NCBI RefSeq assembly: GCF_964204645.1
Contig: NC_134028.1
Location: 20,580,345-20,644,344 of the forward strand
From: Tubulanus polymorphus
Taxonomy: Eukaryota; Animalia; Nemertea
DNA length: 64,000 nt
Direction of reading: 5' to 3'
Shown here one piece after another: positions 2,544 to 41,800 of this stretch (its first letter is position 1; each line of letters begins with the position of its first letter). Made by a program: the position numbers and the translations under genes. Below the pieces are notes generated by a model, which was not told the origin of the DNA, made no database searches, and worked only from the letters and a program-made list of their open reading frames with translations.

Positions 2544-2554
2544 TTTTGGAAATG

Positions 2555-8055: not shown

Positions 8056-10329
8056 GTTCGGTTGAATTTGATTCAAGTGTTAAAATGGATTCATTTTCGT
8101 CAAGTTGACTCTTCAGAAGAATTGTGGAACCGGGCGAAGTTTGGTTAATATTTGAATCTACAGTTCATATTAAGTCTTTTACAGGATTTTATTTCTTTGT
8201 GTGGATGAAAAATGTACAACCTCCGTCGTACTTCAAATTTCCAGCAACGACTGTAAACAAATCACACAGCAAAACATGGCAAAAATAATCGAATCGATCC
8301 TGTAAATAGTTGGAATCAAATCTATAGTACAGTGAAGTGCTAATTCCGAGGCCGTTCAGCAACTTCTGTTTAAATATTATTCAGCCCAATGTATATACAA
8401 AACTCGCAAGATTTAATCAAAACAAAATGAAACATTCGTCGGTCGCTTCAACATCACGTTAAATCTCAACACACATCATACAGGTAAGATCATTTACGCA
8501 AAATATCCATGTTCTGGCAAAGTCGGGAACCAGTCTCCTGTTCTGGCTTAGCCGGGAACCAGTCTCCATTTCAATGATCTGATTGCAGTTTTTGGAAACA
8601 ACATGAAATTGATAAGTTTTTTGGTGATTTTTGTGGCGGTTTTCTGGGTTTCAACCGATGCCATATATGAAAGTACACGTAGCAAGGTAAATATATGTCC
8701 ATGATGAGGAAACGCCGTTTGTTAATCGTCGAAGCATTTCGTCAATAATGATCCAATAATCCATCGTAGCTTAACTTATGAACCTAAAGTCTACAAACCT
8801 CATTGGTCCTATGTGCAGTTGATATTCCTCATGGAAAGACGAATTAACAGAAATAACTCTCGGTATCTGAAACAAATCTCTGAATATGGGTTGAAGTATC
8901 CCACCCCAAACGTTAGAATGAAATAGTAGCTGTTGTTTTGGATCTATATTGTGGGTTTTTACGCAATTCAAGACTGGAAAAAGTCGCAATTATTTATAAC
9001 CTCTTAGTTTTCTTATAATAGCGATTATCCGTGTTGTATTTGAAAGGTTCACCAAAGAAAAAGCATTTTCAATTGTGTTTGTTTGATTGGCAGGCATCAT
9101 CTCGTCCTTTCGAATGTTACGGCAAGGCCATATCGGGACCACTGAGCAAATTGAATTGCAAGTCTATCGTCAAACGCGATATCAAGCACCTACCAGGTCG
9201 ACAAGGTGACTCTTCGCCGAGGGTCTTCAATTCTAGAAAGGGCAGCTCGCTGACTAATGATTTCGCAAGAAACAATGTGAAAGATCTAAGAAAAAATTTT
9301 AGATCTTCGAGAACAGGCTTGAAACAAATGAGAAACTAGAAAACTAGAAAATGCCACGGAAATGATGGATAATTCGAGCAACATTCTATCATACTAGAAG
9401 ATCTATGTTCTAATTCTAATTCAGTTCTAGGTTTCGGGTTTCCTTGTTCTATACGATTCAAATTTGTGTCAATTATTTGTTTATAAATGCAAATAGATAA
9501 TTGAAGTCGGCATTATAAATGAATGTAGTGATGTATTTATTTCATTGACGGTTCGCAGTTTGCAGTGCCCCCGGAAACCGGTGGGCAGATGAAACGAGTT
9601 CCCAGTTGTTCCAGACGGTGTCCAATGACCGGGAAAGGTTTTTTCAAGGGAAGCATTACGGGTAAGGGAGTTAGTGGGTCGATATCCTATACCAAAATTG
9701 ACTAGACCAACCAATAAAAGTAAATGGGAGATTTTGAATGAAGCCTGAGGATAATTCCACCAAATCTATATCAATAATTAGCTGGCCAGACCAGGAACAG
9801 AATTTCCGTCACGAAGTATAGCTGTTTAATATAAACTTAGTTTAGTTTCATTCTCTAAATTGCGAGGGATCCTGCCAATGATTACATACGTAAGTATTTG
9901 GACCAGGACGGCATTGAGAATCTTCAACTTTTGACAACACATGAGGACAGCTGATGGCTTAGTTCGGCATACTCAGATATTAAACCAGATCACCAAAGTG
10001 ATACTGATGGGACTTGTTTCCTTGTACCTATCGTTTCGACTCTTAATCATCAGGCCTTTTCTGAATGTAATGAACTTTCTCCAAATATCCCTATCAGAGA
10101 AGGAAAAAGTTATCATCGGGAAAACTAGGCGTTCGCGCGATCACTATCGTTATTTGGGAGATAAAGGCATAGGTTGTACATTAATTTAGTTATTCATCGT
10201 GTCAGTTCCTAAGAAGAAAGATACTCACAGGATAAAGAAATTGAAAGAAAAAACAAAAATGTTACATGATTACAAATGGACCAATACTATAATCACACAA
10301 TCGATACAAAAAACATAATGGGTTTGTTG

Positions 10330-14989: not shown

Positions 14990-15589
14990 TATTTGAGTAA
15001 TAAATTACCTATTTAGACAGTGGGAAATAAGCCGGAGTTCAAGGCAGTAGTTGCGGTTAGCAGGCGACCTACGTGAATACTTACGTCACACATAAGAGAG
15101 AAGCATAGAAGATAGGTGAGAGTGACGTGGGTGTCTACGTGGGAAAGCTTGTTATAGCAGCAGCCTTGAGCTCTGGAAAGTTGAGTTATAAATTTAGCGC
15201 TCGTGACGTATAACACACGTAGAAATGATTTACATGGCCAGTAGGACTGTAGTAATAGAATAAGACGTCTCTGGCGATGAGGCCAAGCGGTGTGGAAATA
15301 TACGTCACGAGCGAAGGAAGAATAAGTATAAAAAGGGAGGGTTTTAATGCAGTGGGGTCGAAAGCTTGGTCGGTAGAGCTGGGTCGGTTGAGCTAGTGGT
15401 TAGAACTAGAGGGGACGTGCTAGGAAGATTGTAAGAAGAGAGTATAAGAATAAAGATCTGGATCGATAGAAGAAGCTAGTTGTAGTTAATTTATGAGAAG
15501 AACCCCAAGGAACTACGCTGGTGAAACGCAAACAACGCAGGTGGTCAACACACGTCACCCGGACACTGGGACAGAGGACCCCCACAACA
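14990..15589 (+). repeat. 5' LTR
   Basis: Identical to 25132-25731 apart from position 5 (T vs G) on manual comparison. Termini are TA..CA; TATAAAA at 15327 and AATAAA at 15449. Confidence 0.97.
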
Positions 15590-15590
15590 C

Positions 15591-15608
15591 TGGTGGAGAA
15601 TAGCGGCA
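15591..15608 (+). promoter_or_regulatory. Primer-binding site, tRNA-Ala-like
   Basis: TGGTGGAGAAT(A)GCGGCA lies 1 nt after the LTR and is complementary to the ...ATTCTCCACCA 3' end typical of animal tRNA-Ala(AGC). Confidence 0.8.
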
Positions 15609-15636
15609 GAATTCCGGTCTCGCAGCCAAGCTAGTG

Positions 15637-15642
15637 GTGAGT
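15637..15642 (+). promoter_or_regulatory. Predicted major splice donor for the env subgenomic mRNA
   Basis: Consensus G|GTGAGT between the PBS and the gag start. Confidence 0.7.
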
Positions 15643-15686
15643 GACATTATACAAAACTTTGAATCGATTTATAAAAACTCTGGTTT

Positions 15687-16697
15687 ATGTTTTATAACCA
15701 ACCCGTTAAACGAAAAGCACAACTGTTGGGGATGGCAAACGCGGGACAGCAACCGGCCGTGGGACCAGCCAATCCGGCTGTAGGACAAGACGACGACAAT
15801 GATAGCGACGATGAAATAATCATTGTCCCGAAAGGCGTAAGCGGGCTGAAACCAGAACATTTTGACGGAACAAATGATCCGGAACCATGGTTAGACGCAT
15901 TTTTACAATACGTAAAACTCATGGCATGGAGTGACCGTCAGATACTGAGGAGCTTTCCCTTGTTTTTGAGGGGAGAAGCTCGCTCTTGGTATTTAGGTGT
16001 CGATAAAGATAAGAAACGCGTGTGGAATGATTTATTACAAGCGTTTAATCAGCGATATAATAACCCGGATCGAAAAATGCTAAAAACTCACCAGCTGAAA
16101 CACATGCGCATGGTTTCAGGCCAAACAGTAGACAATTTCGCAGACGATGTTAAACGGAGAGCGAATGAATTGGAATTACCCGCGCATGTGACGTTGAGTA
16201 CGTTTATTGACGGTCTCTCCGCGGACATTCGCAAAATCGTTTGGACGCAAATGCCAGAGGATCTGGACAAAGCCATCAAAATGGCTAGTAACGTAGTCCA
16301 GATGTTGAAAATAGATGGCCCTGGTGTTCATCAAGTCGAGACAGCCAACGCGGAGTGGGACGAACTGAAAACAAGAATAAATCAGCTAGAAATTAAACAA
16401 CGAAAGGAGGAGACGATGGCACAGGAAAGTCGGGCTCTTGCGGGAATTCAACGACCGTTTGAAGCGATTACGTACGCGCGAAATGGAGCTACGAACAATA
16501 GACTTCGTTACCCTACGTTTAGAGGTCGATGTTACAGGTGTAACATAATTGGACATATGGCTAGAAATTGCAGGGGGCCAGCAAAATCTACCTTTGCAAC
16601 GGAAAATGGAAACATCATTTGTTATCAATGTGGTTTACCTGGACATATTAGCAGATATTGCCGTCGGAATACGAATCGACAACAGCGGACTAATTAG
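15687..16697 (+). CDS. gag: Gag polyprotein (capsid plus two CCHC zinc knuckles)
   Basis: PEHFDGTNDPEPWL..F / LRGEARSWY retrotransposon capsid motifs and knuckles CYRCNIIGHMARNC and CYQCGLPGHISRYC. Ends in TAG at 16695-16697; alternative ATG in good context at 15732. Confidence 0.95.
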   Translation: MFYNQPVKRKAQLLGMANAGQQPAVGPANPAVGQDDDNDSDDEIIIVPKGVSGLKPEHFDGTNDPEPWLDAFLQYVKLMAWSDRQILRSFPLFLRGEARSWYLGVDKDKKRVWNDLLQAFNQRYNNPDRKMLKTHQLKHMRMVSGQTVDNFADDVKRRANELELPAHVTLSTFIDGLSADIRKIVWTQMPEDLDKAIKMASNVVQMLKIDGPGVHQVETANAEWDELKTRINQLEIKQRKEETMAQESRALAGIQRPFEAITYARNGATNNRLRYPTFRGRCYRCNIIGHMARNCRGPAKSTFATENGNIICYQCGLPGHISRYCRRNTNRQQRTN

Positions 16698-19600
16698 GGC
16701 TGTAGCAAGGATGGCTTAGGGCAGCTGTCCAGAGCTATACAAACAGAGAATGCCCAAGTATTGTATGAGGTAGGATCGGGGATAACGGGGGATAGTGGGC
16801 GCTCACAGACAAAATTGAAATCTCACAAACAAAACTTGACAAAGAAGAAAATTTTGAAAGAAAAACCAAAAGTATTATGCTCTGAGCGCCCACTGTCCTT
16901 AAATTGTGTTATTTTTGATGAACGGATGGATGTTTTGATTGATACAGGAGCAACTCGAAGTGTCATATCATATGAATACTTTTTAAAATTAAGATCCACG
17001 GTATTAGTAACGCCGTTAGAATATGACGGTTATAAATATGCTACGGTAGCTGATGGGGGTACATTAGAAATATTCGGTATTGTTAAATTAAATCTTAAAA
17101 TGGAATCAAGGGTTGTTAAGCAAGAATTTCTGATATTAAGGAAATTGGCTCACCCATGTATTCTAGGCATGGATTTCATTAACAGTCAGGGTGTGGTTAT
17201 TGACACTCCGAGAAAGCTCCTACATCTGTCATCCGGTCACTCAATACCTCTTCACGAGGGGGCAAAGGTACAATTACAAATTTGTATAGTAGCTAACGAT
17301 ACGGTCACAATTCCGCCTGGTACACAGGTGCAGATAAAAGCAAAAATGAAGGGGACGGGAAGAAAGGACGGTGTAGGTTTTGTTCAACAGTCCGCTAGAT
17401 TATGGGATAAATATGGTATTATGGGTGCGGCTAGTATATCTAATATTAAAAGTGGGGTATTACCTGTGCAAGTTTGTAATCCATCAAATTATTCAAAACG
17501 GTTAAAAAAGGGTGCCATTTTAGGAGATGTTACTCTCATCGATTTAGATGCTCCTATCGCAGACGGGTCATATATGACAATTGATAGTGAAGGTATTTCC
17601 ACGCCTCAACCTGAAAATCAAAACGATATATTAGATAGTGTGGAAACGGGAGACATATCGGTACAGCAAAAAGCTGATTTAAAATCATTATTGGAGGAAT
17701 ACAGAGATAGGTTTGCAGAAGGGATATTGGAGTTGGGAACCGCAAAGGGGGTTGAATGCAATATTGAGACTGAAAATGAGGTGCCTATTCGGTCACGACC
17801 ATATCGGGTTCCATTAGCGTTGAGGGATATTTTAGATAAGCAGATTGATGAACTTAAAAAGCAAGGCGTTATTGAAGATTCAAATTCAAATTATAGTTCT
17901 CCCGCACTTTTGGTACCAAAACCAGATGGGTCATATCGATTGTGTATTGATTTTAGGCGATTAAATAAGGTATTAAAATTGCAAACATTACATCCAATAC
18001 CTCATATCTTTGACACCTTAACTATGTGTGGCACCGCTAGGCCAAAAATATTTTCTTCTCTAGATTTAAGAAGTGGTTATTTTCAGATCCCGATTTCACA
18101 AGAGTCTCGTCACAAAACGGCGTTCGTAACGCCTACTGGTCATTACCAATTTACTAGATTACCCATGGGCATAGCATCGGCCCCTAGTATTTTTCAATCC
18201 ATTATGGCTCGCCTCTTACATTCATTAGGGGACTCTGTTTTGGTTTATTTAGATGACCTTTTAGTATTTTCTACGTGTTGGGAGGATCACTTACAACATT
18301 TACGCCAACTTTTTGAAAGATTACGGGTGGCGGGGTTGACACTTAAACCCAGCAAATGTTTTATTGCTCGACCAAACTGTAAGTTTTTGGGTTTCTATTT
18401 AGACGGGGATGGCATTAGAACTAATCCCGAGAAAGTAAATGTGATTCGAAACTGCCCTGTGCCTACAAATCAAACTCAAGTTCGGTCTTTCCTAGGGGCT
18501 GCTAATTTCTATAGAAAATTCATTAAGAACTTTTCGGGGCGGGCACGACCATTGACACTATTGACGAGAAAGGGTATACCATTTCTATGGTCTGACGATT
18601 GTCAGAAAGCGTTTGATGACTTGAAACAGGCACTTATAACAGCACCCGTGTTAGCATATCCTTCTCTGAAACGCAAGTTCAAGGTTCACTGCGACGCATC
18701 AAATTTTGCGATGGGATATTGTCTTGTACAGGAAGGAGACGACGGTCAAGAACACGTAATTGCATACGGTGGACGAGCACTAACAAAACAAGAACAAGCA
18801 TATTCCGCTAGTGAGCGGGAGTGTCTGGCGCTCATTTCAGCCATTAAGTATTATAAAGTATACCTGTATGGAAATCCTTTTACGGTGGTCACAGATCATA
18901 AAGCACTGTTGTGGTTAAAAAAGATGGAGGTCGATGGTCTCGCCTCAGGTCGGCTACAACGGTGGTGCATCTTCCTACAAGGATACCAATATGACGTTGA
19001 GTATCGGGCAGGAGTACAACATGCAGATGCGGATTTCTTGTCTAGATTAAGGTATCCGGAAATAGTGGCTGTTGACACAGGTAACGACGATATCTTGGTG
19101 AATTTGCCTATGGAACAACGTAAAGATAATGAGTTACGACCTATCATTGATTACCTATTAGACGGATCATTACCAAAAAATGATCGTTTGGCACGACGAA
19201 TAATCTTGTCGCACGAAAGGTATATTCTGGACAACAAGGATAGTCTTCAATACTTGCAACATTTAAATCGCCGCCAATCTGCTCACTTCTCTCCTTGCTA
19301 TGTGATACCAAAACAACTTCGCTTACAAATCCTGCAAGAAACACATGAGGTTTTTGGAGGACACAGTGGCATCAAGTCAACGTATATGCGTCTGAAAAAT
19401 AGGTATTATTGGAATGGTATGTTTAACGATGTAAAGGATTTCTGCTTACGATGTAATGTCTGTCAACGGAAAGGGTTGTCTGCAAAAGAGGCTACTAAGG
19501 TTCCAATGCAAACGGTACGGGTGGAGCCAATTTTCCATAAATTTGCTATGGATATGGTGGGTCCCTTTCCGGTGTCTGACAAGGGGCATAAATATGTGTT

Positions 19601-20765
19601 GACATGTATTGAAACTTTTTCATCATATATGGAGGCATTTCCGCTTAAGACGGCATCGGCAGAAGAGGTCGCCGAAAGGTTGGTGGATGGTATCATTTTG
19701 AGATATGGGATGTTTTCTACTATACTTACCGACAATGGGTCAAACTTTATCTCAAAAGTCTTTCAACGAACGGCCATCCTCTTGGGGGGTAGAACAAAAA
19801 CTACGTCCTCATATCATCCGCAGGCGAATGGTGCTTTAGAAGTACAACATAGACAATTAAACAAATCAATAGCTAAGTTATTAGATGGACAAAGCCCGGG
19901 AAAGTGGGACTTATATCTGCAATCTGCGGTATTCGCAATGAATTCCTCAAATAATATCAATTCGACGTCATTCACGCCTTTTGAAATTGTTTTTGGGCGG
20001 ATGCCTAAATTGCCCATGGAACTAGCCATATCAGCTCCAAAAAATGAATATGGGTCTCATGTGGCCTATTTTCAACACTTAATTAAGAAGATGGATATAG
20101 TACATGACATAGTTCGTAAGAATCGGGAACTGAGCAAAATAAAAATGAAGCAGCAGTACGATAAAAATGCTAAAGATATTCAGTTTGAAGTGGGGAGTAA
20201 GGTTTTTCTTTATTACCCACACTTGCCTACTGGGGCATCAAAGAAATTACATTCATTTTGGCTGGGCCCATATGAAATTATTGAAAAAATAGGAGAAGTT
20301 AATTACAGATTGAGAACGGATGATAATCGAAAGGTTAAAACATTAGTTCATGTAAATAGGTTGCGTCCGGTTTATGAATCTAAAAAACCGCCTACTTACG
20401 ACTTACCGCAGACTATTGAAAAATTAGATGACTTACCAGGGAACCTCGCCATGGATGAAATCGTTTTGCCCCATAAGAGTCGCCATGTCAAAATCGGCAT
20501 GACGCCCGCAATTGAACCTCCTACTTTGACGCAGAGGGACATGACGTTATCGAAGGGTCGCGAAAATATTGACGGGAAAGACGAGTCGATATACACTGTG
20601 TCTCGAATACTCAAACATAGAAGACGGGGAGGCAGGTTGTATTATTATGTCGCCTGGGAGGGTTATGCGGATAAGACTTGGGAACCGGAGGAGAATTTCT
20701 TGGATAGGTCGATCTTGACGGCATATCATCAGAAAGCCAAGAAAAGACGGAAACGACGTGCATAG
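16698..20765 (+). CDS. pol: Pol: aspartic protease, RT, RNase H, integrase with GPY/F motif and chromodomain
   Basis: LIDTGA (16941), YLDD (18246), HCDASN, HHCC plus D,D,E integrase core, WLGPYEI, and C-terminal YTVSRILKHRRRGGRLYYYVAWEGYADKTWEPEENF. The frame is open from the codon after the gag TAG. Confidence 0.97.
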   Translation, partial: GCSKDGLGQLSRAIQTENAQVLYEVGSGITGDSGRSQTKLKSHKQNLTKKKILKEKPKVLCSERPLSLNCVIFDERMDVLIDTGATRSVISYEYFLKLRSTVLVTPLEYDGYKYATVADGGTLEIFGIVKLNLKMESRVVKQEFLILRKLAHPCILGMDFINSQGVVIDTPRKLLHLSSGHSIPLHEGAKVQLQICIVANDTVTIPPGTQVQIKAKMKGTGRKDGVGFVQQSARLWDKYGIMGAASISNIKSGVLPVQVCNPSNYSKRLKKGAILGDVTLIDLDAPIADGSYMTIDSEGISTPQPENQNDILDSVETGDISVQQKADLKSLLEEYRDRFAEGILELGTAKGVECNIETENEVPIRSRPYRVPLALRDILDKQIDELKKQGVIEDSNSNYSSPALLVPKPDGSYRLCIDFRRLNKVLKLQTLHPIPHIFDTLTMCGTARPKIFSSLDLRSGYFQIPISQESRHKTAFVTPTGHYQFTRLPMGIASAPSIFQSIMARLLHSLGDSVLVYLDDLLVFSTCWEDHLQHLRQLFERLRVAGLTLKPSKCFIARPNCKFLGFYLDGDGIRTNPEKVNVIRNCPVPTNQTQVRSFLGAANFYRKFIKNFSGRARPLTLLTRKGIPFLWSDDCQKAFDDLKQALITAPVLAYPSLKRKFKVHCDASNFAMGYCLVQEGDDGQEHVIAYGGRALTKQEQAYSASERECLALISAIKYYKVYLYGNPFTVVTDHKALLWLKKMEVDGLASGRLQRWCIFLQGYQYDVEYRAGVQHADADFLSRLRYPEIVAVDTGNDDILVNLPMEQRKDNELRPIIDYLLDGSLPKNDRLARRIILSHERYILDNKDSLQYLQHLNRRQSAHFSPCYVIPKQLRLQILQETHEVFGGHSGIKSTYMRLKNRYYWNGMFNDVKDFCLRCNVCQRKGLSAKEATKVPMQTVRVEPIFHKFAMDMVGPFPVSDKGHKYVLTCIETFSSYMEAFPLKTASAEEVAERLVDGIILRYGMFSTILTDNGSNFISKVFQRTAILLGGRTKTTSSYHPQANGALEVQHRQLNKSIAKLLDGQSPGKWDLYLQSAVFAMNSSNNINSTSFTPFEIVFGRMPKLPMELAISAPKNEYGSHVAYFQHLIKKMDIVHDIVRKNRELSKIKMKQQYDKNAKDIQFEVGSKVFLYYPHLPTGASKKLHSFWLGPYEIIEKIGEVNYRLRTDDNRKVKTLVHVNRLRPVYESKKPPTYDLPQTIEKLDDLPGNLAMDEIVLPHKSRHVKIGMTPAIEPPTLTQRDMTLSKGRENIDGKDESIYTVSRILKHRRRGGRLYYYVAWEGYADKTWEPEENFLDRSILTAYHQKAKKRRKRRA

Positions 20766-20905
20766 GATATTTGCCACGCACCCAACAGTTGTTGCGAAAT
20801 TAATTAAGGATAATAGGAGAAATGAGTATGAGTATAAAGTTGCTGTGTTTTAAGAAATTGTTAGGAAATCAAGAAGTTATGATTTAAAATGTTGTTTTAG
20901 GAACC

Positions 20906-22738
20906 ATGGTTCGGAGTATAGTTCATATCGTTATGATTTGGTCGTGGATAGGACCAATGGCTGCATGGAATGCAGAGCTACGGATGGGGGCTGGAGTAGT
21001 GTTCCAGCCAGTTGACGAGATAAATGTAGCAGCAACAAAATGGGAACATAGTGTTATGATTCCTTTAGTAGATGTTTCCCGGTTTTCGATGACAATTCCT
21101 AATATGACGTGTGGAATGCCCAATGCCGAATGCCGACAAATAGAGAAAATGTTTCGCCTAATGCGTTTGCGTAAAATCCGAGCTGATCAAAAATTTAACA
21201 GTTCCAGGCGTATGATTGAATCATTATTACCTGTTGAAATTCCGAGTACAAGAAGAGAAGGCCGTATGAAACGAACACCACTATCATTCATCGGAGATGT
21301 CGCCAGTTTGATTTTTGGGGTCGCCACTACTGAGCAGTTACAAATAGTGGAAAGACATATGAATAAGTTTGATGCATTACAAAAATTAGATCATAAAGCT
21401 ATTGTCCAGTTACAAGAACGGTTAACTAGCTTTGCCAACGTAACAGATTCTAGATTTAAGTTAGTCAAGTCTCTAGTACGACAAAACAGAGATTATATGT
21501 CAAAACTTTCGGAATTCGTTGTAAATAATACTATGAATCAGGCTCGTATACAGGCAAGGGTACATGCACTATCATACGTAGTGCGGTATTCCATTAATTA
21601 TGGGGATGTTATTGAGGCTATCAGCAGCCACATGGCCGCGTGGTTGCGCTCCACTAACGTTTTACTATCAAATAGACTACCTGTGGAGTTAATTCCGGTA
21701 ACAAGTCTCCAGGAAATCTTATCAAAAATTCGCGTTACATTGAAGAATTTTTACCCCATGTTTGAGCTGGCACATCAAACCCCGAGTTATTATTATTCGC
21801 ACGCGCGAACGTTTACTGTCAGGACTCGTGAATATATAGTGGTTCATATGCAGATCCCAATACAAGCAAAAAATACGCATTTTCGTTTGTATAATATATT
21901 ATCTTTTCACCTTCCGGTTAATGCAACCGCTACGGTGTATACAAAAATAATTAACCTCCCACGCTTCTTTGGCGTTAGTAAGAATTTGCAAACTTACGTG
22001 TTGATTGATGAAGCCACTTATTCGCTTTGCCAAGGACGTTATATACAGAATTGTGCAGATGGATTACCTATCTATACTCGAACACAAAAATCATGCGCGT
22101 CTGCACTTTTCTTTGATAATCCTAAGGATCTAATTGGGCAGTGTGATCTGACATATACTTCCGTGGCGCCTCTGTCTCAGGCGGTCCTGTTGACAACCAA
22201 TAAATATTTGATATCCATTCACGACAAGCGAGATGATTGGATTTCCCAATGTGGACTGGATCCACCAATTAGGGTTCCGGTCTGTGATTTTTGTGTTGTC
22301 ACCTTGCAATGTCATTGTGGGTTGAATTCGAAATACTTTACGCTTTCGCCGACTTTAACAAATTGTGAAAAAGGTCATGATAGAATAACTCGATTATATC
22401 CCGTTAACATACCGGCGGCATTACTTTTGGGTAAAGAGGATGATATTGATAATATGCAAACAGAGGTATTATATTCTAAAATTCCGCGTATCACACTGCC
22501 TGATTTTAATATAGAAGGACATGAATGGGATAATGTGATACGGGCTGAAAACGCTAAGGAAGCTGATTTTAAAAAATTGGCGCAGGCTATAAGCCGTGAC
22601 AAGATAGCGTATACAAGTAGGTCCGATTATTTACGGTCAGAAATTAGGGGGACACATAGTTCTTTGAAAATCGGTGGTTATATTCTGATTTCGTTAGTAA
22701 TTGTGGCAATAATAGTATCGACTCTTCGCCACAAATAG
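20906..22738 (+). CDS. env: Envelope glycoprotein, class I fusion protein (F-protein/errantivirus Env-like)
   Basis: Hydrophobic signal peptide, furin site RMKR (21263-21274) followed by fusion peptide TPLSFIGDVASLIFGVAT, heptad region, Cys-rich ectodomain with NxS/T sites, and C-terminal TM IGGYILISLVIVAIIVSTL. Acceptor ttgttttag lies 5 nt before the ATG. Confidence 0.9.
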   Translation: MVRSIVHIVMIWSWIGPMAAWNAELRMGAGVVFQPVDEINVAATKWEHSVMIPLVDVSRFSMTIPNMTCGMPNAECRQIEKMFRLMRLRKIRADQKFNSSRRMIESLLPVEIPSTRREGRMKRTPLSFIGDVASLIFGVATTEQLQIVERHMNKFDALQKLDHKAIVQLQERLTSFANVTDSRFKLVKSLVRQNRDYMSKLSEFVVNNTMNQARIQARVHALSYVVRYSINYGDVIEAISSHMAAWLRSTNVLLSNRLPVELIPVTSLQEILSKIRVTLKNFYPMFELAHQTPSYYYSHARTFTVRTREYIVVHMQIPIQAKNTHFRLYNILSFHLPVNATATVYTKIINLPRFFGVSKNLQTYVLIDEATYSLCQGRYIQNCADGLPIYTRTQKSCASALFFDNPKDLIGQCDLTYTSVAPLSQAVLLTTNKYLISIHDKRDDWISQCGLDPPIRVPVCDFCVVTLQCHCGLNSKYFTLSPTLTNCEKGHDRITRLYPVNIPAALLLGKEDDIDNMQTEVLYSKIPRITLPDFNIEGHEWDNVIRAENAKEADFKKLAQAISRDKIAYTSRSDYLRSEIRGTHSSLKIGGYILISLVIVAIIVSTLRHK

Positions 22739-23248
22739 CAGTACATGTTATCCCTGCCTAGACTACGGATGAATTTGCTTTCTGAGGCAATGGGTGGGGA
22801 CTAGCGGCTGACATCTCGGCGATTCGGGTGTATCTGATCAGTATATCCATTTTTGCATAAATTTCGGCTCATCTTTATAAAATGTACTTAGAAAATTATT
22901 ATGGAATTATTCATTAATTGTTGAAGCTGTCTGTTGCCAACATGTGCTGGGCACACGATAATCAACTAAATGATGTACTTGGCATCAGTATTAATTTACG
23001 TCGTTGATTGGAGTCGGGACAGGTTGGACAAACCATCTTAAACGGTTAAAGATCGAGGCGGTCAGTGTATGGAAAGGGAGAGGAACATAATAAAAAAGGG
23101 AAACTTTCGGTGTATACTGTTTTAATAATGCTTACTTCCAAAAAAAAGGGGAAGAGAAGTTGGTGGTTTTGTATCTAACTAAATTTGTATTATCATACTA
23201 AATGTGGTATAAAAAGAAACGAACTCCAGTGAGTGTAAATAGATCTGG

Positions 23249-24820
23249 TCATTCTTCTCGTTCTGAAATATAGGATTTGTATTTGCATGAGTTTTTTTTT
23301 AATTCCCATATGGTTCATATTGTAATTTCTCGGACTGAAATACGAATTTGTTATATTTGCTTGTATATTTTATAAAATTCTTACCGGGTTCGCTGTCACT
23401 GGAATTTGTAGGTGAAGGAGGTGGGAAGTAGCTAGCCAGCGACGGCAGGGAGCTGGAGGTGCTGCTTGCAGAAGGGCTAGCAGGGGTATCAGGGATGTGA
23501 AGGATCGGATATCGGGAATGGGGAATCAGGTACAGGAGGGGAATCGGGAACTCCAAGTGATAGGAGGGGGTGCTGAGAAAGGTCGAGAAAAGGAGTTGAG
23601 TTGGGAGAAGAGGTACTGGGGGATGGGGACATGCGGTTATAGGGTGGAGGTTGTGGCCCCAGACCGGGGGGCGAGGGGTCCACGCTCTGGTCTGTGGGCG
23701 CGTTAGTACGACGGGAATAGGGATGCATGCGGAGGGTGCCGCCGCTTGGTTGCCCCCTTCCCGTGCCCCTTTGCCGCGCCGTATGTTGCCCTCGTGTTGA
23801 GGATGGGGTGGATGGAACTGGGAGCCCTGCGTAAATAGACAATATATATAGAGGTAACATGTGGAATTGTGTTCGTGGCGTTGCCATAGTATAATTATTA
23901 GCATTAGAACATATAACTAATGGTATACGCAATGAATAAATAAATACGTATGAACTATGGTTGTAAAGAGGGATATATATAATGTATACCTGAAAACGCG
24001 GCGCGTAAGTCGTCGGTGGCAGCCCGAATTATGTTTAATAATTGTTGTCGGTTGCCTGCGTTGCAAAAGTATATTAGAAAAAGCAGTTATAAATTGTTTT
24101 TTTTGGTACATAAAATGAATTAAGAAGTCTTACCGGGCTGTGCTAGAATAAAGCCATACAGCATGTGTAGGACCAGTGAGGCTGATATGAAAAACAAAAT
24201 ATGACAGGATGAGATATATATGTTGTTAATTTTGAGGTTTCTAATTTTATATACTTCATGCTTTGAAGCACGGTATTAGTACGTTGCCGTACAGTACCTT
24301 GGAAGTGCTGATTAAAAAAAAAAAAAAAAAAACAAAGAAAGAAAAAAAAAAGGGATTGTATATATAAAAGTATTGTTGCATAATATAATACAACGGTAAT
24401 GAAATGGACTGAAGTGCAATTAACGTTTTTACAATTAGTAATTATAGTTACATGACTAACATTGTTAAATTTCAGGGTTTTTCTGGTATTATATTGTTCA
24501 CATTTTTAGGAATAGCGCATGGGGTAATAGATCTTATCAGGGGCGATGTGACCGTTTAAAATAACAAAGTGCAAGAGTGGCGCATAATGTATTATCGCAT
24601 GTAATGATAAAACTGTACAAAATGGTTGGTGTGTTAGTTTATAAGTATTCAAAATAAGTTGCTTACCGAAAAAAAAAACTCTATCGGGTCCATTGTGAAT
24701 GATAATCCGGATGGTAATGAGGGTTTAGTCTTTATGGCGGATGGAAGTAGAATGTTTCAGAGATGGGGATTTTACTCAGTATCAAGGGTGACTTTTTGGC
24801 CAGGTGTACTGTTATTGTTG
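23249..24820 (-). CDS. Putative spliced antisense accessory gene of the LTR element (exons 24820-24667, 24307-24255, 24181-24134, 24055-23990, 23826-23385, 23262-)
   Basis: Alternating canonical minus-strand acceptors (pyrimidine tract plus CAG) and donors (GTAAG x3, GTATA x2); ATG in strong context at 24693; frames stay open across the junctions. The true reading frame is uncertain. Confidence 0.6.
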
Positions 24821-25117
24821 CTGGTCAGAAAAGAAATAATGGGTTTTTTTTTCTCTCTCTACCATCCAGATGTTGAAAATTTATGTGCGTCAGTTGCAAG
24901 ATTGTTGTATCATTTATCATAAAGCACCATTTTTATTGCCTTACGGTGAAGTTCAAGGGGTGAAAGTTGTTAAAAAAGAAAAACAAAAAAGAAAAAGTTG
25001 TTTATGGAAGTAAGGGGTACTGATTTTGCACTATTGCTAGCTACGGCTCTTAAAAAAATCTCTGGAAGTGCAAACGGGCTTCAGTATTTTTTTTGGCGAT
25101 TGGGGGTCCAATCGTCT

Positions 25118-25131
25118 GGAAAGGGGGATGG
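25118..25131 (+). promoter_or_regulatory. Polypurine tract
   Basis: GGAAAGGGGGATGG immediately before the 3' LTR. Confidence 0.9.
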
Positions 25132-25731
25132 TATTGGAGTAATAAATTACCTATTTAGACAGTGGGAAATAAGCCGGAGTTCAAGGCAGTAGTTGCGGTT
25201 AGCAGGCGACCTACGTGAATACTTACGTCACACATAAGAGAGAAGCATAGAAGATAGGTGAGAGTGACGTGGGTGTCTACGTGGGAAAGCTTGTTATAGC
25301 AGCAGCCTTGAGCTCTGGAAAGTTGAGTTATAAATTTAGCGCTCGTGACGTATAACACACGTAGAAATGATTTACATGGCCAGTAGGACTGTAGTAATAG
25401 AATAAGACGTCTCTGGCGATGAGGCCAAGCGGTGTGGAAATATACGTCACGAGCGAAGGAAGAATAAGTATAAAAAGGGAGGGTTTTAATGCAGTGGGGT
25501 CGAAAGCTTGGTCGGTAGAGCTGGGTCGGTTGAGCTAGTGGTTAGAACTAGAGGGGACGTGCTAGGAAGATTGTAAGAAGAGAGTATAAGAATAAAGATC
25601 TGGATCGATAGAAGAAGCTAGTTGTAGTTAATTTATGAGAAGAACCCCAAGGAACTACGCTGGTGAAACGCAAACAACGCAGGTGGTCAACACACGTCAC
25701 CCGGACACTGGGACAGAGGACCCCCACAACA
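25132..25731 (+). repeat. 3' LTR
   Basis: Direct repeat of 14990-15589 at offset 10142, followed by TSD GTTC. Confidence 0.97.
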
Positions 25732-26766
25732 GTTCCAGTCACTATCTTAGGTAGGTCCACTTGCCACTGGTGCTAGTGTAACACGATTCATTCTTGATAT
25801 GAGAAAGTTACTTTGAGAGAGGAACTCTGTTTCCATAAAAAAAAACTTTCTAAACATGGTAACTCCAGACTCTTCGTTTCCCGTGTTTAAGAGAGGATAT
25901 TTTGGTATCGTACGGGTGATTTAAATTTAGGTTATATTCAAAATACACCAAATTATGTGAAGAAGATGTTATAGAAAAATTGTTTAAACCTGTGAGGCAA
26001 ATCAAATATGTAACTATATTTGCCGAAAAGACACACACAAAATGAGAAAATCAAAGATTTTGCAGTCGCCATGGCAATAAATCTCAACAAATGCAGATTT
26101 TTCCGAGAAAATCTGATACCGTGTAAAGTTTACTTCAATTTCCGACAATAAGATACCACACATATATCATGTGAATTCCAAAATCTAGCCCCAATGACCA
26201 TATGGTCACTTTTTTGGAATATGGACATAAAACAGTTGCCATGGCAGTGACGGTAACAATGAATATTGGGCATCGGTCATTCTCATGTCCAGGGAAGTCT
26301 ACTTAACAGCCCCACGTGCCAGGCTGTAACATGCTATGCATAACAATTTACACAAGCTCCTCTTCTTTGATTAAGAATAGGACATATCTAACATATTTTG
26401 TAGCCACAAGGTGTTGACTCAACATTCTCACTGTCACTTGTACTAAATGATGAATGGACTAAAGGAGCATCTCAAAATTTTAATCGTCTCGTCAATTAGA
26501 ATAACTTTATTAAATCTCTCTTACCCCACACTTTGATTAGACACGTGCCGAAGTTGGAACTATTGATTTTCTAATTGAGAGGCCACAGACAAAGTTAAGT
26601 TCTCGTGACTGTATTTTGATCGCAACTGTCATTGAAAATACAATAGGAAAATTACATATGAACCCTATTAATCTAATAGGTTTTAACAAATAGGCCTCGT
26701 AACGAGCGCATGGTTTCTCGAACTTATATCTTTTTGATTAATGTCGTACGAATCCTAGATTATTAT

Positions 26767-27527: not shown

Positions 27528-28528
27528 CTACCGGTCTACCCGACACGCCTGGCATCGTGTGAAACTACGGAATCTATCATCGGTAGAAATAAGGATGAAA
27601 AAATTACCGACTGAATTGAAAACCGTTGTAGTGAGAGCGAATTGATAAAACATTGCTCGCAATCTATAATCGCGTATTACAAAACCGTTTATTTCAAAAA
27701 GTCGCGGCATTGTGGCCGGGATTTCGCAAATTAGAAAGAAAGTGACGAGCGCAACGACATTTCTGAGAGCGCGGATATCGATGACATTGTTGCGGGCGAC
27801 GGAATCACTTCGACGAAGAGACCGTCGAGCTGTGGTCGCACGATATAAAACAAACATTAACAGAAAATTGACAACTATCAAAAAACAAGTAGGGAATATT
27901 GACGTTATGAACATGTAAACATAATTGGTGTAATTTGTGATGAGTTTTGTGAGAAAATCAGTATATTTGAAGAGTGTATAACCGCTGAACTGGGTATGAA
28001 CACGAATATCTAATCTAAGACAAGGCAAGTGATAAAGTCCTGGGAATGAGCCTTGTATGATATAATGCCAGTTTGCCAACGCGCTTAAGGTAACCACACA
28101 AATCATCATTGATAGTAGTTTTCTTTGTGTCCAAAATCGTACCGCTCGCAACGGAAATGAAATCACCACTAGCCGATCAACACTGAGCAAAACAACCGAC
28201 CAATTCCTCGATGTCTCTAACCAGAGAAACATATATGAAAATATGAACAAAATCCAACCCCCGAATTTGAGCGCGTAAAAACGAAACATGACGTCACCCA
28301 TAATCGCGTAAACGTACAACGCCCGAATCGGGTACAAAAACGCGAACGAAACGAGAAACGATAAATCAAAACAAGCTACGAATTTGCATACGTAGTATGA
28401 TTTTCGTTTCAAACGTTCGATCGTAACGATAGTACAATCGCATGGACGTAAAACGTATCGATGTAAACTTTTCGTATCGGTGAAGTTTTTACGCACGACA
28501 CGTCAGATGAATTCGTAACAGACGTCAT
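27528..28528 (-). pseudogene. Intronless class A GPCR (FMRFamide/peptide-receptor-like), apparently disrupted in TM1
   Basis: TM2-TM7 motifs: VACFDLSFL, LSVDRLVVISFPL, IFPTCFLIVVN, FFLICEIP, NSVGNFFIL. The long ORF has only a GTG start; the ATG with MTSVTNSS (28528) is in another frame. Confidence 0.7.
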
Positions 28529-35800: not shown

Positions 35801-38800
35801 ATACCTGGATCGGATAAGTTGCGCGGTGGTTGGATGTTAAACGGTAAACCGAATGCCTACCCGACTAGTTATGGAATCTATGGCGTTGCCACGCGCGACT
35901 GGGGCTCGCACATGCATTTAACGTGGAAATTCGGCGCAAAAACCAACGCCGTCATCTACAATAATCTAACATCGAGTGAACACGTGTTCAACACTCCGCA
36001 GACGATCGCGGTGGAGCTCTCGGCCTCAAACGTATTGAATGCTGCCACGGCACCGGTGCAAACCATCGAACTGAGATATCCCGTGGGCGATATTAATCTA
36101 ATCGTGGACCCAATCGTTATCAGGAATACGAGTATATCAGCGACATTGAAACTAGGAAATAACGCCGAAGGAGCTTGCTATTATATAGATTTCAAAATTG
36201 CTACGCCTTGTCGGGAGTACATGTACGGCGACGCCGCATCCTGTCAAAGCGGCGAACACGGTTCAAAAATAGCCGCTATAGCGCCTGATTGCAAGAAATT
36301 CTTCACTGCCAATGAACGCAGTCAATATAGCAATGGTATACAGTTGCCGAAAATGAAAATGATGACGGCCGCTTTTTATTCCGTTATACTGGACGCGGTA
36401 AACGTCGTTAGTCGTCGGACTTTACCGATCCCGTTAGTAGTTACCCGCGGGCCGTGTTATCCCCCGAATGTCACTCTTCAAATCCCGGACGTATGTGCGA
36501 ATATGCGATATCCTGACTGTGGGGACTATCGAAGATACCCAGGCGCCTTCGGCGTGCTACGATCGGAGAGTCTCGTCGTAAATTCCGTCCCGATTCTGAA
36601 TTGTACTTCGTCGAAAATCGCCAATTACACTTGGACCATTTTCAAACAGGAAAACGGCGAGTTCGTCGAGATGACCGAAGACGAGTTGAACGGTACTGTA
36701 CTATCGTCTTCTAGTTTGCGTATGATTTACTTCGCGCCTCGGTTTTTCTCGTACGGGAACTATCGGCTGGAATTGAACGTATCCATGCACGAAGAGCAGG
36801 GTATTTTCAAGGTTGTGTCTGGTGACATTTTCGTAATAAGAACGCCGTTAGTCGTCAACATCAAAGGCGGCTACGAGACAACTATGAAATGGTTCGCTAA
36901 CGTGACGGTGTCCGTCGGTGATTCTACCTACGATCCCGACGATCCGGATAGAGACATGTCGAAGTTGAAATTCGATTGGTATTGCAAAAAATACTGCGAA
37001 ACTTTCGCCACATATGACCAGTATTTTAACGTGATGAGTGAAGGGAGGTTGTGTAATCCAGGGGATTTGACTCCGTTATTAGATGCGGCCAGCGCCAGCC
37101 AGTCCAGTAGACCACTCACCACCGTCGGATGTGTCAAATACGCAGATGAAATACAATATCCAGGTAGGAATTGAATCTAGAACATATAAAATGTATGTAC
37201 ATAATGAATGAATGTGTACTGTAATTCATAATGAAAACTGCAGAAACGACGAATTTCCTTTTAAGAAATCCGTTCTCCGTTTTGGCGCCCGCACCAAAAC
37301 AACAACAAAAAACGAATTCTCTCTAAAAATCCATCCAGGCCATAACATCTAGTGTGTTTGGTCCTTTCGACCCTTGAAAACCGATGGAACTGGTATCTTA
37401 TCTATGAACAGTTAGAATTCCCTTTTTACAACTGCAGGTTTAATGTATGACGCAAAAGGCAAACGTATCGATACGGCCAGCTTCGTAGTTGATACCGCTA
37501 ACTGGAACGAAGCTTTCAACTTAACGTTGAAACTCATGGTACTGAAATATGACCCGTTTTGGGGCGGCCTGAGAGCAGCGTATTTTGAGCAGTCAGTATC
37601 AGTGGTTAACGGTGACCCACCTGACATCAAAATGATGTAAGTGTTATCTTTGTAGTACGAATACAGTTAAGTCCCCTTCGTAGGACGTCTACCTTGTCCG
37701 CCGTAGATCCCCAAGCGTACGCGGCTAAATCTAACATTTATAGGCTTTAAACCTTTTTAATTACAAGGGGTTTTTAAAAATTTTTTTTTCAATAACAAAA
37801 TAATTGCTTCATCATATCAGCCTCGATTTTAAATCTAGTAACTTTCACAAGTTACTAATTCATCGTATTCATGATTTCTTTTGTTCCTAATTCATTATAC
37901 TTTAATTTATCCTATTTGTTGTTCTGTAATTATATATCTACTAAAGTTATATTCATCTTAATTTCTAGATCTCGTGATTTGAAAAAATTTATTTCTTCCG
38001 ACATTTGATTCAAATTCATTACAACTTTTTGCTTATTTTATGCAGTCCGTCCGAGGTTTTATGTGGATAATACTCAAACAATAATTTTGTTTTAAATACG
38101 ATTTTCCGTTCCCTTCCGTTTTAAAACGTCCAAAATAGCTCATTTTTATTTTTTCCCTTCGTTCTCCCACTTTTTTGAAAAAAAATCCATACTCCGAGTA
38201 ACTAAAAACGACCTCGATAGCACACATGTAAACTATACGGAATCGATGACGTTTCTCAAAAAAAACTTCAAGACACATTTTCGGTAATTTCTGCAAAACC
38301 TTTGCGTAAATTTTGGTAATCGTTTTTGTTTTTAGATGTGTTACGAACTGTCAAACTAAAATGAATCCCAGCAGCCGATTTTCAATAGGAACGACCATCA
38401 CAAATTTCCCGGGGCTTCGCGATTTCGGTTTCGAGTAAGTTTATACGACCCTTCTCCAATCATAGGTAATGATAATCAAATCATTCGATGTTTTCCAGAT
38501 AATCCGAAGTAATAGGTAACAAACTGGATAAGGCGTGAAGATACACAACATCCGTATAAGATAAACATGCGGGAGAAATCCCATAATAAATTCAGCCAAA
38601 GGTCATAAGTTCTAGAATGGAAGTGTATATTACAGTTGTGTTGTTACAGCGCACATGATAAATAACAGTGGCCCCTACTTCGTCGGCGCCAACAAAGTAA
38701 AATGCGATGATGGATTTTCGCAAGGTCGAATGCTCAAAACTATGGAAGACCTCAGACGACATACGAGATATGAGATATAACATACGAGATATGAGATGCA

Positions 38801-41800
38801 ACATACGAGATACGACATATGACATACGAGATACGACTTATTTACAGTACGGGTGTCCGTCCGCTAGCGCCACCGCAGTGTATATTTTTCAACATCTACT
38901 CGGCGTACGACACGTGCGCAGGCAGTGACGTATACATTAACTATGAATATCAATATGCGAAAAACGTTTCATTTGAAACGAAAAATATTTAAAAATATTC
39001 GACCACTCCCGGGGACCGGCTTCTCGCTGTGACGACAGTGGGCCACTCTTAGTGTGAGACACCGATGGTCCGGTGATTCGAGTTGGCTCCAAATACGGGG
39101 CTACAGCCCCGAAATCCACCAAAAACGCCTCAAATTCCATTTTTGAGTGTACAAAAATCCCTCAAAAAGAGTTAGCCATGGCCCCTTCAAATTGGTGGTC
39201 ACTAAGAATTGCGCCTAGTCAAGGGTTTAAACTTCGCGTTCGATCGAGGGTTTTCGATGAAGAATGAAAGATGTATGTATATTACGAATGCCGATGACCA
39301 AAGAGTTTGAAAAAAATTCCGACACACGCGGAATCTGTTTAGTGTACTATGATTTCAACGAATGAATTGGAAACATGGACATGAATTAAAAATACTAAAG
39401 ATAACATAAATTTATTGAATGAATTATTCATTAAATATCAGAATGGAGTTCCATTGTATCACTCTCAGCTCCTGGCCCTAGTCCAGCTGATTTCGTTTAT
39501 CACGACGTTTTTTGCGACGGGTGCAAACGCAACATGCAACGTTTCGGTGTTCCGCTAATTCCCTGTCTAAAGAAATGTTACTTGATATTTCCATGGATCT
39601 CTTATCTTTACAAATGTAAGAGCTGTTGTGTTTTGCTGAAGACTTATGTATGTGGTTCCTGTACTTTTGTCAATAAACAGTTTTAAAACTGGCCATGATA
39701 ATTGATAAGAATGATCTTAAATTGTATTCTCCGATTATGAAAGTTATTCAGATTCAGCCATTGGCCCTTTTCATGAAAGATGTCAGAAAAGAAAGATAGC
39801 CAAAAAGCCCTCAGAATACACAAGTACCTAAATTGAACAAATTTTCAGGGGAGGACCCCAGACTATGGCTTCAGAAAGACAGTGCCGCATACTGCCCTGA
39901 CGGTTAGCGAAAACTGGCCAGTCTCGACTCTCAACGGCTGGTCTAGTGGACTCACCAGTCTGCCCCGGTAGCTCGATAGGGATGGAATTTAGCTGGGGAT
40001 TTCACACCTTGAGAGAGAGCACGGGAGTTCTTAATCTGGATACCAGGGCGATATACGGGTTCCCTGGTTGTTTGGGATTCAAGAACTCAGGCAGGGGTGT
40101 CAAACAGCGGAGGAGGGGTACAAGGGAGCCGGGATTTCCGGCTGCGGATTTAGAATTTTGATTTCTGATGCAGAAAAGCCGGCGGTTACGGCGGGCGGTG
40201 AACAGTAGTTATTTTTTCTGCAGGCAGTGAGTAACCGGAACCCCGGCTCCTGAACACCAGGCCGTTTTCAGACCAAAGGAAGACAAGAAATAGCATAATA
40301 TTATGAACTTGAACAGTTTGATATCTTTTTAGTTTTGTGATTTGAAAAACCTTTCGTCGCCCGCGGGAGAGGAACGGCCGGCGCGCCTAGTCCAGGGTGT
40401 TCACAGTATGGCCTAATCGTTGTGTCCGGTCCAGGTGTCCATTATCCAAAAGAAATCTATTTCTGGTTTGAATAAAATGTTGACTATGTTGGTTTTCATA
40501 TAATTGACGATGACTGTACGCGTCACCATGTTAAACGATTTATATGCAGTAAATATTGAAAAAACATACACTGTGGCGGCGCTAGCGGACGGACACCCGT
40601 ACTGTAAATAAGTCGTACCTCGTATGTCATATGTCGTATCTCGTATGTTGCATCTCATATCTCGTATGTTATATCTCATATCTCGTATGTCGTCTGAGGT
40701 CTTCCATACAAAACACGTCTACCTATCATGACGCAGCTCTGCAGAGACTAAGGTGCAAGGTATCCGATTGGCTATTGAACAGCTGCGAGCGCCACGTGAA
40801 GGTTTAGTGATAGATGGCGCCAGTGCGTGGTCCTCAGTCTCTCGTCGCGTAAATACAATTATCCACCATTCGATGGACAATTTCCCTTAATTTGAGCAAC
40901 GTTTGGGCTAAAGACTATTCGCAATCATCAGTACGTCTGAACCAATTCGCGAGGAGTTTTGCTAATCGCTTTAGATCTTTGGCTGAATTATTGTGGGATT
41001 TCTCACGTACATATACGTGTGGGATATATTATGTTGACATGAAAAATCGCATTTTAGCTGGACGTTGAGAAAAGTGAAAATCCAAGGTCACACAATCCTT
41101 TTCCAAACAATTGCGCTAAACGATTGGGCGAAATCAGTGCCCACTGGTATCACGCATGATTACATTTCTATATACCCAGCTGTAGATGGCTATTTCAACA
41201 ATTTGAGAACCGATCAAGATGCGAGATACGCGCTATTAGTGCAGTCGTGGAGGACAGCAAACCCGAAAATCAAAGGTATAAAATCATCGTGTCTGTCTTA
41301 CCTGGTCTTACTTTAATTCGGCTCGGCTGAATGAATATTTGTGGTTTTGTCTTTAGGCCAGTTTCTGGCTTATAACCTATGCTGAGGGGGCGCCAAAACA
41401 GCATCATGGTTTCCAACAAAATCAGTTTAAGAGAGCTACGTCTTTTTCTTAGGGCCGAAATGTTCCTTTTTGCATCTGCCCTTTTGAAATGGTGTCTGTA
41501 TTGAAATCTAGGACCGCTAGTATCTTCGGTCTAGTAGGCCATAGAAAGAGGTACCAAACTAGTCGGCGGACGTTTGGTTCATGTGATTGGAAATTTATAC
41601 GAGGTTTAATACGTCATTTTCAACTCCAAACGTGAGAATCTTAACTGATAACCTAGTTGACCTCAGATATAACTTCAAAACGGATGCTGTTAGTTTTTCT
41701 TTGCATCGATAGGTAAGGCCAGTCTGCCGTTCGAGATTAACGATACTCCGAAGGAAGGGATTTGCGGTGTGGATCCGCCTGAAGGAACGGCAATCGGTAC

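What the first reader, a model, noticed from the sequence alone, without database searches (positions are those of the whole stretch)
23249..24945. Hidden multi-exon antisense gene between env and the 3' LTR
Seen on the minus strand: acceptors at 24821, 24308 (long poly-T tract), 24182, 24056, 23827 and 23263, and donors at 24944, 24666, 24254, 24133, 23989 and 23384, giving mostly 70-165-bp introns like the host's. Joining from ATG 24693 gives an open 105-aa basic peptide (MDPIEFFFSHFQGTVRQRTN...KRRHPPHASLFPSY). A second frame is also open across three exons: SLVLHMLYGFILAQPGNRQQLLNIIRAATDDLRAAFSGLPVPSTP...RQRGTGRG...RMHPYSRR...PPPY...PDSP, which has PY-NLS-like and PPxY motifs. Inference: introns on the antisense strand survive reverse transcription of the sense genome, so the element can carry a true spliced gene driven from the 3' LTR side, possibly a regulator or anti-silencing factor.
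Basis: partly seen in the sequence, partly recalled or inferred. Interest (0 to 1): 0.88.

Follow-up and report, generated by a model that had tools for sequence, protein, structure and literature searches.

The report
Spliced antisense gene in invertebrate errantivirus
A recently inserted, envelope-carrying jumping gene of an invertebrate animal holds, written backwards between its envelope gene and its end repeat, what is very likely a real intron-containing gene for a small protein of no known family, predicted to act in the nucleus on the element's own activity.

Summary
All 12 splice sites exist; motif-blind GC change-points fall on them (6 of 9; shifted null mean 0.59, maximum 3). The element is a young Ty3/gypsy errantivirus (LTRs 1 mismatch in 600 nt) with chromodomain and F-type env, here truncated. 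One contig fits exactly exon 24181-24134 without its introns, an indirect sign of splicing in a relative. No read joint across any intron was seen and no run is on record as RNA, so expression is unproven; start exon and the frame of the last long exon are unsettled. Best reading: a 3'-LTR-side antisense accessory gene for a ~145-aa-plus protein (short helical core, PY-NLS-like motif, Pro/Ser tail), likely a nuclear regulator. Layout is known from HTLV-1 hbz and plant/fungal antisense ORFs; I found no report for animal errantiviruses. New variant of a known kind; interest 0.52.

The parts
14990..15589 (+). 5' LTR, 600 nt; TATAAA at 15327, AATAAA at 15449; preceded by the 4-nt target-site copy GTTC
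15591..15606 (+). primer-binding site, tRNA-Ala type
   Evidence: same type as the Ala rows of PMC13524379 supplement file 2, compared by eye
15675..16697 (+). gag frame (capsid, zinc knuckles); ends in TAG with pol following in the same frame (read-through inferred)
16698..20765 (+). pol: protease, RT, RNase H, integrase, C-terminal chromodomain
20906..22738 (+). F-type env, 610 aa; broken at about 22720 in this copy (most full-length relatives listed are about 780-900 aa)
   Evidence: loose ends at 22719-22728 in all four runs
24945..25131 (-). predicted first exon region / antisense promoter side; start site unknown, in or next to the 3' LTR
   Evidence: inference from donor 24944
24821..24944 (-). 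predicted intron 1, 124 nt
24667..24820 (-). predicted exon with ATG 24693; ends in a T-run whose length differs between the window and the contigs that span it
24308..24666 (-). predicted intron 2, 359 nt, long poly-T tract
24255..24307 (-). weakly supported small exon; alternative donor at 24297
24182..24254 (-). predicted intron 3, 73 nt (116 nt from donor 24297)
24134..24181 (-). 48-nt exon, best conserved part; ATG at 24164 in the second frame; three listed changes all synonymous in that frame
24056..24133 (-). predicted intron 4, 78 nt; length-changing indels among copies
23990..24055 (-). 66-nt exon, predicted amphipathic helix in the second frame; stop in the 105-aa frame in a diverged subfamily
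23827..23989 (-). predicted intron 5, 163 nt; acceptor CAG is TAG in the diverged subfamily
23385..23826 (-). 442-nt exon: Arg/Gly stretch, RMHPY, PPPY, Pro/Ser-rich tail (40% P+S) in the second frame; window copy has a frame-changing length difference at 23519 against all four runs
23263..23384 (-). predicted intron 6, 122 nt
23100..23262 (-). predicted last exon; ATTAAA at 23126 is the only polyA-like hexamer down to 22740
25121..25131 (+). polypurine tract
25132..25731 (+). 3' LTR, 1 mismatch to the 5' LTR, followed by GTTC

Best explanation
Shown: sites, composition steps, frame and acceptor retention in diverged copies. Inferred: a promoter in or beside the 3' LTR fires backwards; the host spliceosome removes five or six introns; the introns persist through replication because the packaged plus-strand RNA shows them as CT..AC, which is not spliced; translation from ATG 24164 gives 144 aa in the window copy (162 aa if donor 24297 links ATG 24693): a short helical core over two small exons as the likely binding surface, an Arg/Gly stretch plus R-x2-PY as a likely transportin signal (consensus recalled), and a disordered Pro/Ser tail. 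The most likely job, by analogy with hbz and Grande gene23, is a nuclear adaptor that tunes or protects transcription from the 5' LTR; that step has no direct evidence (about 0.4 given the gene).
For: Blind GC change-points on splice sites, 6 of 9, null maximum 3. Host introns share the AT-rich, short, GTAA/GTAC style. In a subfamily about 8-14% diverged (16 other letters in 204, 20 in 138) the acceptor at 23827 stays YAG, net length changes in 23931-24135 fall in the intron (24078, 24096-24097) while the one exon indel pair (24011/24014) is frame-neutral. 5 of 7 listed changes in the two small exons are synonymous in the second frame (P 0.015 at an expected share of 0.26, 0.056 at 0.35). A more distant genomic contig in X1 fits only about 24105-24194, the 48-nt exon plus intron edges, with AT-rich unlike flanks; a 496-nt contig in X3 fits only 24132-24181, with unlike letters on both sides and no AG in front, as a spliced or intronless relative would. 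No RNA structure explains the exon's conservation (z -1.7 to +1.0; Rfam 0 hits).
Against: No joint with CT..AC ends in any of the four holder runs over 22300-25900 or 23760-24720; these runs cover introns as deeply as exons and look like DNA, so this is not a test of expression. In the long exon the listed changes favour a third frame (5 of 7 synonymous) over the second (1 of 7); over all 14 listed changes: second frame 6, third 7, 105-aa frame 1; 3 of those 7 are places where the window differs from all laid X1 copies. The tables were cut (46 and 20 rows not shown). No homologue for the 110-aa long-exon piece (38 candidates, none at E<=10; Pfam 0). The intronless contig is one record from a run of unknown kind and its flanks could not be tied to exons of this element. 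All holder runs come from one study.
Confidence: 0.62

Rival explanations
1. The antisense RNA is real and spliced but works as RNA (like BLV AS1/AS2 or micropia antisense RNAs), pairing with or interfering with the genomic RNA; the open frames are incidental.
For: Non-coding precedents in PMC10186651 and PMC7264820 (passages).
Against: Third-position, synonymous pattern in the two small exons and a frame-neutral indel pair; both small exons are multiples of three; no stable fold.
Confidence: 0.13
2. A piece of a host gene was captured in reverse orientation (so its introns stayed) and is carried passively; the X1 and X3 contigs that fit only the 48-nt exon are the host parent gene and its mRNA.
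For: Host-like intron size and composition; a low-depth genomic contig (37.9) and an intronless contig share only that exon; gene capture by LTR elements is known (PMC7264820 passage).
Against: Sites and frame are kept across subfamilies 8-14% apart, which passive carriage by an error-prone RT would erode; only one exon, not the others, resembles those contigs; no Pfam or database match to a cellular protein.
Confidence: 0.13
3. The gene is real but its main product reads the long exon in the third frame, reached by skipping the small exons (160-184 aa in the window), or several isoforms matter equally.
For: Third frame is open over the whole 442-nt exon (147 aa) and 5 of 7 listed changes there are synonymous in it.
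Against: That frame has stops in both small exons, the best conserved parts; C/T changes at first positions of Pro/Ser codons of a disordered tail give the same pattern; small, cut table.
Confidence: 0.07
4. The 105-aa basic peptide of the first reader is the product.
For: It is open in the window on the stated path.
Against: Stop in a sister subfamily in two runs; 1 of 14 changes synonymous; depends on a copy-specific T-run length.
Confidence: 0.02
5. Chance GT/AG motifs in a T- and C-rich, strand-skewed spacer; no gene.
For: Minus strand is pyrimidine-rich (plus-strand GC skew 0.33); no spliced reads on this element.
Against: Change-point test, kept acceptor, synonymous pattern, exon-bounded contigs.
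Confidence: 0.03

Closest known systems
'Ancient errantiviruses' with chromodomain and F-type ENV from Cnidaria, Mollusca and Annelida (Chary and Hayashi, eLife 2026, PMC13524379)
   Same: gag-pol-env order, F-type env, C-terminal chromodomain, tRNA-Ala type PBS, about 10-12 kb between LTR ends.
   Different: No fourth gene described: 'antisense' and 'splic' occur 0 times in the main text. No tree was built here, so the clade is inferred from features.
HTLV-1 hbz / HTLV-2 aph-2 (PMC10186651, passages)
   Same: Spliced antisense gene driven from the 3' LTR side, small nuclear regulator of the 5' LTR.
   Different: Vertebrate deltaretrovirus; bZIP or related product, few introns (recalled: one). 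Here five or six short host-style introns in a dedicated spacer and no bZIP or other Pfam match.
Antisense additional ORFs between pol and 3' LTR: maize Grande gene23, rice RIRE2, Retand TRP28, Botrytis Boty brtn (PMC7264820, PMC11963269, PMC8365987, passages; Zhao 2011 seen only as a reference title)
   Same: Extra antisense gene in the 3' internal region of a Ty3/gypsy element, own promoter, nuclear product proposed as regulator, function unknown.
   Different: Plant and fungal elements without a fusogen env; 'intron' occurs 0 times in both plant papers' main text; no TRP28, SMC or Zn-cluster match here (single-exon pieces only).
BLV AS1/AS2 and Drosophila hydei micropia antisense RNAs
   Same: Antisense transcripts from the 3' part of the element, spliced in BLV.
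   Different: Reported as probably non-coding; here the small exons show a coding pattern.

Membership tests
Ty3/gypsy LTR retrotransposon | LTR pair, PBS, PPT, target-site duplication, gag, pol in PR-RT-RH-IN order | tested here: met
F-type env-carrying errantivirus (Chary and Hayashi) | third sense ORF homologous to F-type ENV | tested here: met
   window ORF itself has no Pfam hit, but 1605 relatives at E<=0.001; 6 of 13 scanned relatives pass the Baculo_F cut-off and a seventh (P0001, 49% identical) hits below it
F-type env-carrying errantivirus (Chary and Hayashi) | intact env in this copy | tested here: not met
   610 aa, broken at about 22720; the copy is a damaged member
Chromodomain clade of ancient errantiviruses | chromodomain after integrase | tested here: met
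   PF00385 at residues 1299-1346 of pol, E 2.2e-9
Chromodomain clade of ancient errantiviruses | placement in the RT tree | not tested
   reference sequences not held; nearest pol found is 34% identical over the integrase half
Antisense accessory genes (aORF-3R, brtn, hbz kind) | antisense, between the last sense gene and the 3' LTR | tested here: met
Antisense accessory genes (aORF-3R, brtn, hbz kind) | present and conserved in most copies of the family | tested here: met
   whole stretch covered in X1 and nearly so in X2, two subfamilies keep sites and frame; one study only
Antisense accessory genes (aORF-3R, brtn, hbz kind) | transcribed and spliced from its own antisense promoter | tested here: inconclusive
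   no run on record as RNA; no CT..AC joint; one exon-bounded intronless contig
Antisense accessory genes (aORF-3R, brtn, hbz kind) | nuclear protein that regulates the element | not testable with these tools
   only motif-level hints (RMHPY after an Arg/Gly stretch; consensus recalled)
HBZ / TRP28 / brtn protein families | sequence homology (bZIP, PF04195, Cys cluster) | tested here: not met
   no Pfam hit at E<=1 for three single-exon pieces; the spliced product itself could not be searched

The most novel reading that the evidence does not exclude
Chromodomain/F-env errantiviruses of marine invertebrates are 'complex' endogenous retroviruses that independently evolved an hbz-like slot: a dedicated 2-kb spacer between env and the 3' LTR holding a multi-intron antisense gene for a new family of small nuclear proteins that counter host silencing or set latency; such genes are invisible to ORF-based surveys, so a whole class of accessory genes in animal Metaviridae may be unannotated.
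Probability: 0.3. Interest if true: 0.78.

Novelty: new variant of a known kind. Interest (0 to 1): 0.52.

Why it matters
Animal Ty3/gypsy elements are annotated as gag-pol(-env). A five- to six-intron antisense gene with 48- and 66-nt exons cannot be seen by ORF scans, so the 1512 errantiviruses of PMC13524379 were not examined for one; the F-type, Ala-PBS annelid, coral and mollusc rows seen span about 9-12.6 kb, leaving room for such a spacer (inference). If the protein is a regulator or anti-silencing factor it gives a testable handle on how env-bearing elements keep active in animal germlines, and shows the deltaretroviral hbz layout arising separately in an invertebrate element.

Tried and rejected
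No whole genome is held, so sister copies were seen only as contig tables. Run search: no RNA holder listed; the one guessed RNA run X5 laid 0 records: no evidence either way. No splice joints; the three joints listed (22817/22913, 23091/23141, 25224/25467) lack splice ends. Related loci: viral contigs gave none for env, two env alignments and the integrase half; metagenome contigs gave L001 (45% env), which ends about 400 nt after env and shows no match to the antisense region; genome contigs was not scanned (one search found no usable pattern). Protein search with the 110-aa long-exon piece: nothing; only lengths 60-193 aa were searched. PDB: no hit for env. ESM Atlas gave no answer. Rfam and folding: no RNA family or stable structure. 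No fold was predicted: only single exons can be submitted, and they are too short or disordered; the spliced product remains unsearched and unfolded. Rejected: 105-aa peptide; chance motifs; RNA-structure constraint on the 48-nt exon. Literature: six answered searches listed no paper on a spliced antisense gene in an invertebrate env-bearing gypsy element; the library lacks most subscription papers, Repbase notes were not searchable, and only parts of the PMC13524379 supplements were seen.

Full report
THE ELEMENT. The finding lies in a Ty3/gypsy LTR retrotransposon at 14990-25731. The LTRs are 600 nt with one mismatch and are flanked by GTTC on both sides, so the insertion is recent. It has a tRNA-Ala type primer site, gag, and pol with protease, RT, RNase H, integrase and a C-terminal chromodomain. 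The third ORF (20906-22738) has no Pfam or PDB hit itself but 1605 relatives at E<=0.001; of 13 relatives scanned, 6 pass the Baculo_F cut-off and the nearest (P0001, 49%) hits below it, so it is an F-type env. It is broken at about 22720 in this copy: relatives run on for some 200 residues and contigs of all four runs have loose ends there. These features match the chromodomain-bearing 'ancient errantiviruses' of cnidarians, molluscs and annelids in PMC13524379 (seen: abstract, outline, term passages, section 5 part 1, section 22, supplement file 5 part 2, 30 of 35 'Ala' places of file 2). I built no tree. The host is an animal with a PKD1-like gene nearby; no genome is held.

THE OBSERVATION. 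All 12 sites exist. Introns have GC 0.23-0.33, internal exons 0.40-0.61. A GC segmentation that ignores motifs put 6 of 9 change-points within 10 nt of a consensus site of the matching kind, against a mean of 0.59 and a maximum of 3 in 1921 shifts; other settings gave 5 of 7 and 5 of 9; the plus strand 1 of 9; 61 of 62 control windows 0-2 hits and the overlapping one 3. Thresholds were chosen after seeing the sites, and windows over the host gene did not score either, so the test shows specificity, not sensitivity. Four host introns read by eye are 80-437 nt, AT-rich, with GTAAAT, GTACCG and GTACGT donors: the same style. The small exon 24307-24255 has no composition step and holds a second donor at 24297.

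WHICH FRAME. Sister copies were visible only as difference tables from contigs of four runs of one study, kind not on record; 46 and 20 rows were not shown. A subfamily 8-14% away is present in X1 and X2. Of 7 listed single-letter changes in exons 24181-24134 and 24055-23990, 5 are synonymous in the second frame, 2 in the third, 0 in the 105-aa frame (P 0.015-0.056). The acceptor at 23827 changes CAG to TAG and stays valid; net length changes between 23931 and 24135 fall in the intron. Against this: in the long exon the 7 listed changes give 1 synonymous in the second frame and 5 in the third, which is open over the whole exon; three of them are places where the window differs from all laid X1 copies, and the second frame there is a Pro/Ser-rich tail where P/S exchange is cheap, so I leave the point open. 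The window copy also differs from the contigs by frame-changing length differences at the T-run before donor 24666 and at 23519, so its N- and C-terminal readings may be peculiar to this copy. The 105-aa peptide is rejected.

SPLICING. No joint with splice ends was found; the runs cover introns like exons and look like DNA, and the one guessed RNA run laid nothing, so this is no test. Indirect sign: a contig in X1 fits only about 24105-24194 (the 48-nt exon plus intron edges) with AT-rich unlike flanks, i.e. a distant genomic relative, and a 496-nt contig in X3 fits only 24132-24181, shares the change at 24141, and has unlike letters directly on both sides with no AG in front. That is what a spliced or intronless form of a relative looks like, and it marks both exon borders. 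It is one record, and it could equally be the mRNA of a host gene from which the exon was captured. The exon has no Rfam match or stable fold.

HOW IT LIKELY WORKS. Shown: layout, sites, coding pattern of two exons. Inferred: antisense transcription from the 3' LTR side, host splicing, a polyA-like ATTAAA at 23126. Introns persist because the packaged plus strand shows them reversed. The product has a short predicted helical core, an Arg/Gly stretch ending in RMHPY (fits the PY-NLS pattern, recalled), PPPY and repeated PDSP in a tail with 40% Pro+Ser. No homologue was found for single-exon pieces; the spliced product could not be searched. I commit to a nuclear adaptor that regulates the element's own 5' LTR or shields it from silencing: gene in the second frame 0.62; regulator role given the gene about 0.4. 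Rivals: spliced non-coding RNA 0.13, passive host capture 0.13, third-frame product 0.07, chance 0.03, 105-aa peptide 0.02.

WHAT IS KNOWN. It works like HTLV-1 hbz (spliced, 3' LTR-driven, nuclear; PMC10186651 passages) and like the antisense ORFs of Grande, RIRE2, Retand and Boty (PMC7264820, PMC11963269, PMC8365987 passages), but shows no homology to them. PMC13524379 does not use 'antisense' or 'splic' in its main text; PMC4402516 on Oikopleura Tor elements shows no antisense gene in the passages seen. Six answered searches listed no report of such a gene in an invertebrate env-bearing gypsy element; subscription papers, Repbase and unread supplements may hold one. Earlier notes of this scan report similar antisense spliced genes in fungal and other elements; they are unchecked leads, and they suggest that the layout recurs, which lowers surprise but raises generality.

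VERDICT. New variant of a known kind. Interest 0.52; 0.78 if it proves a clade-wide regulator or anti-silencing gene (probability 0.3).

Noticed in passing
window 22720-22771: env is broken here in the window copy; a short out-of-frame stretch just downstream resembles the last residues of relative P0001, pointing to an internal deletion.
   Followed up: partly
window 22719-23038: About 320 nt shared at high depth with other subfamilies whose sequence is unlike on both sides: a conserved cis element or a recombination block after env.
   Followed up: no
window 23760-24720: Differences between copies are strongly strand-biased: G/A transitions on the plus strand 33 against C/T 3 in X1 and 34 against 4 in X2 (P about 1e-5); plus-strand GC skew is 0.33 here and 0.31 in the LTR against 0.08-0.12 in gag, pol, env. 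Could be RT bias or editing of the genomic RNA; direction unknown.
   Followed up: partly
window 14990-14993 and 25132-25135: Both LTRs appear to begin TA rather than the usual TG (ends CA), judged from the GTTC target-site copy.
   Followed up: no
window 16695-16700: gag ends in TAG with pol in the same frame, suggesting stop read-through rather than frameshifting.
   Followed up: no
window about 32400-55100 (+): Multi-exon host PKD1-like gene (PKD, REJ, GPS, PLAT, polycystin channel domains).
   Followed up: partly
window 27528-28502 (-) and 60832-61071 (+): Intronless 7-TM receptor-like ORF and a Ly-6/uPAR-like exon.
   Followed up: no
window 1469-9417 and 62394-63996: A repeated 1.3-kb unit, inverted arms and 20/40-nt period minisatellites: probably a foldback-type DNA element with a second copy at the window end.
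   Followed up: no
window 38741-40708: 149-nt inverted repeats, 97% complementary, 1670 nt apart, inside the PKD1-like gene: probable non-autonomous DNA transposon.
   Followed up: no
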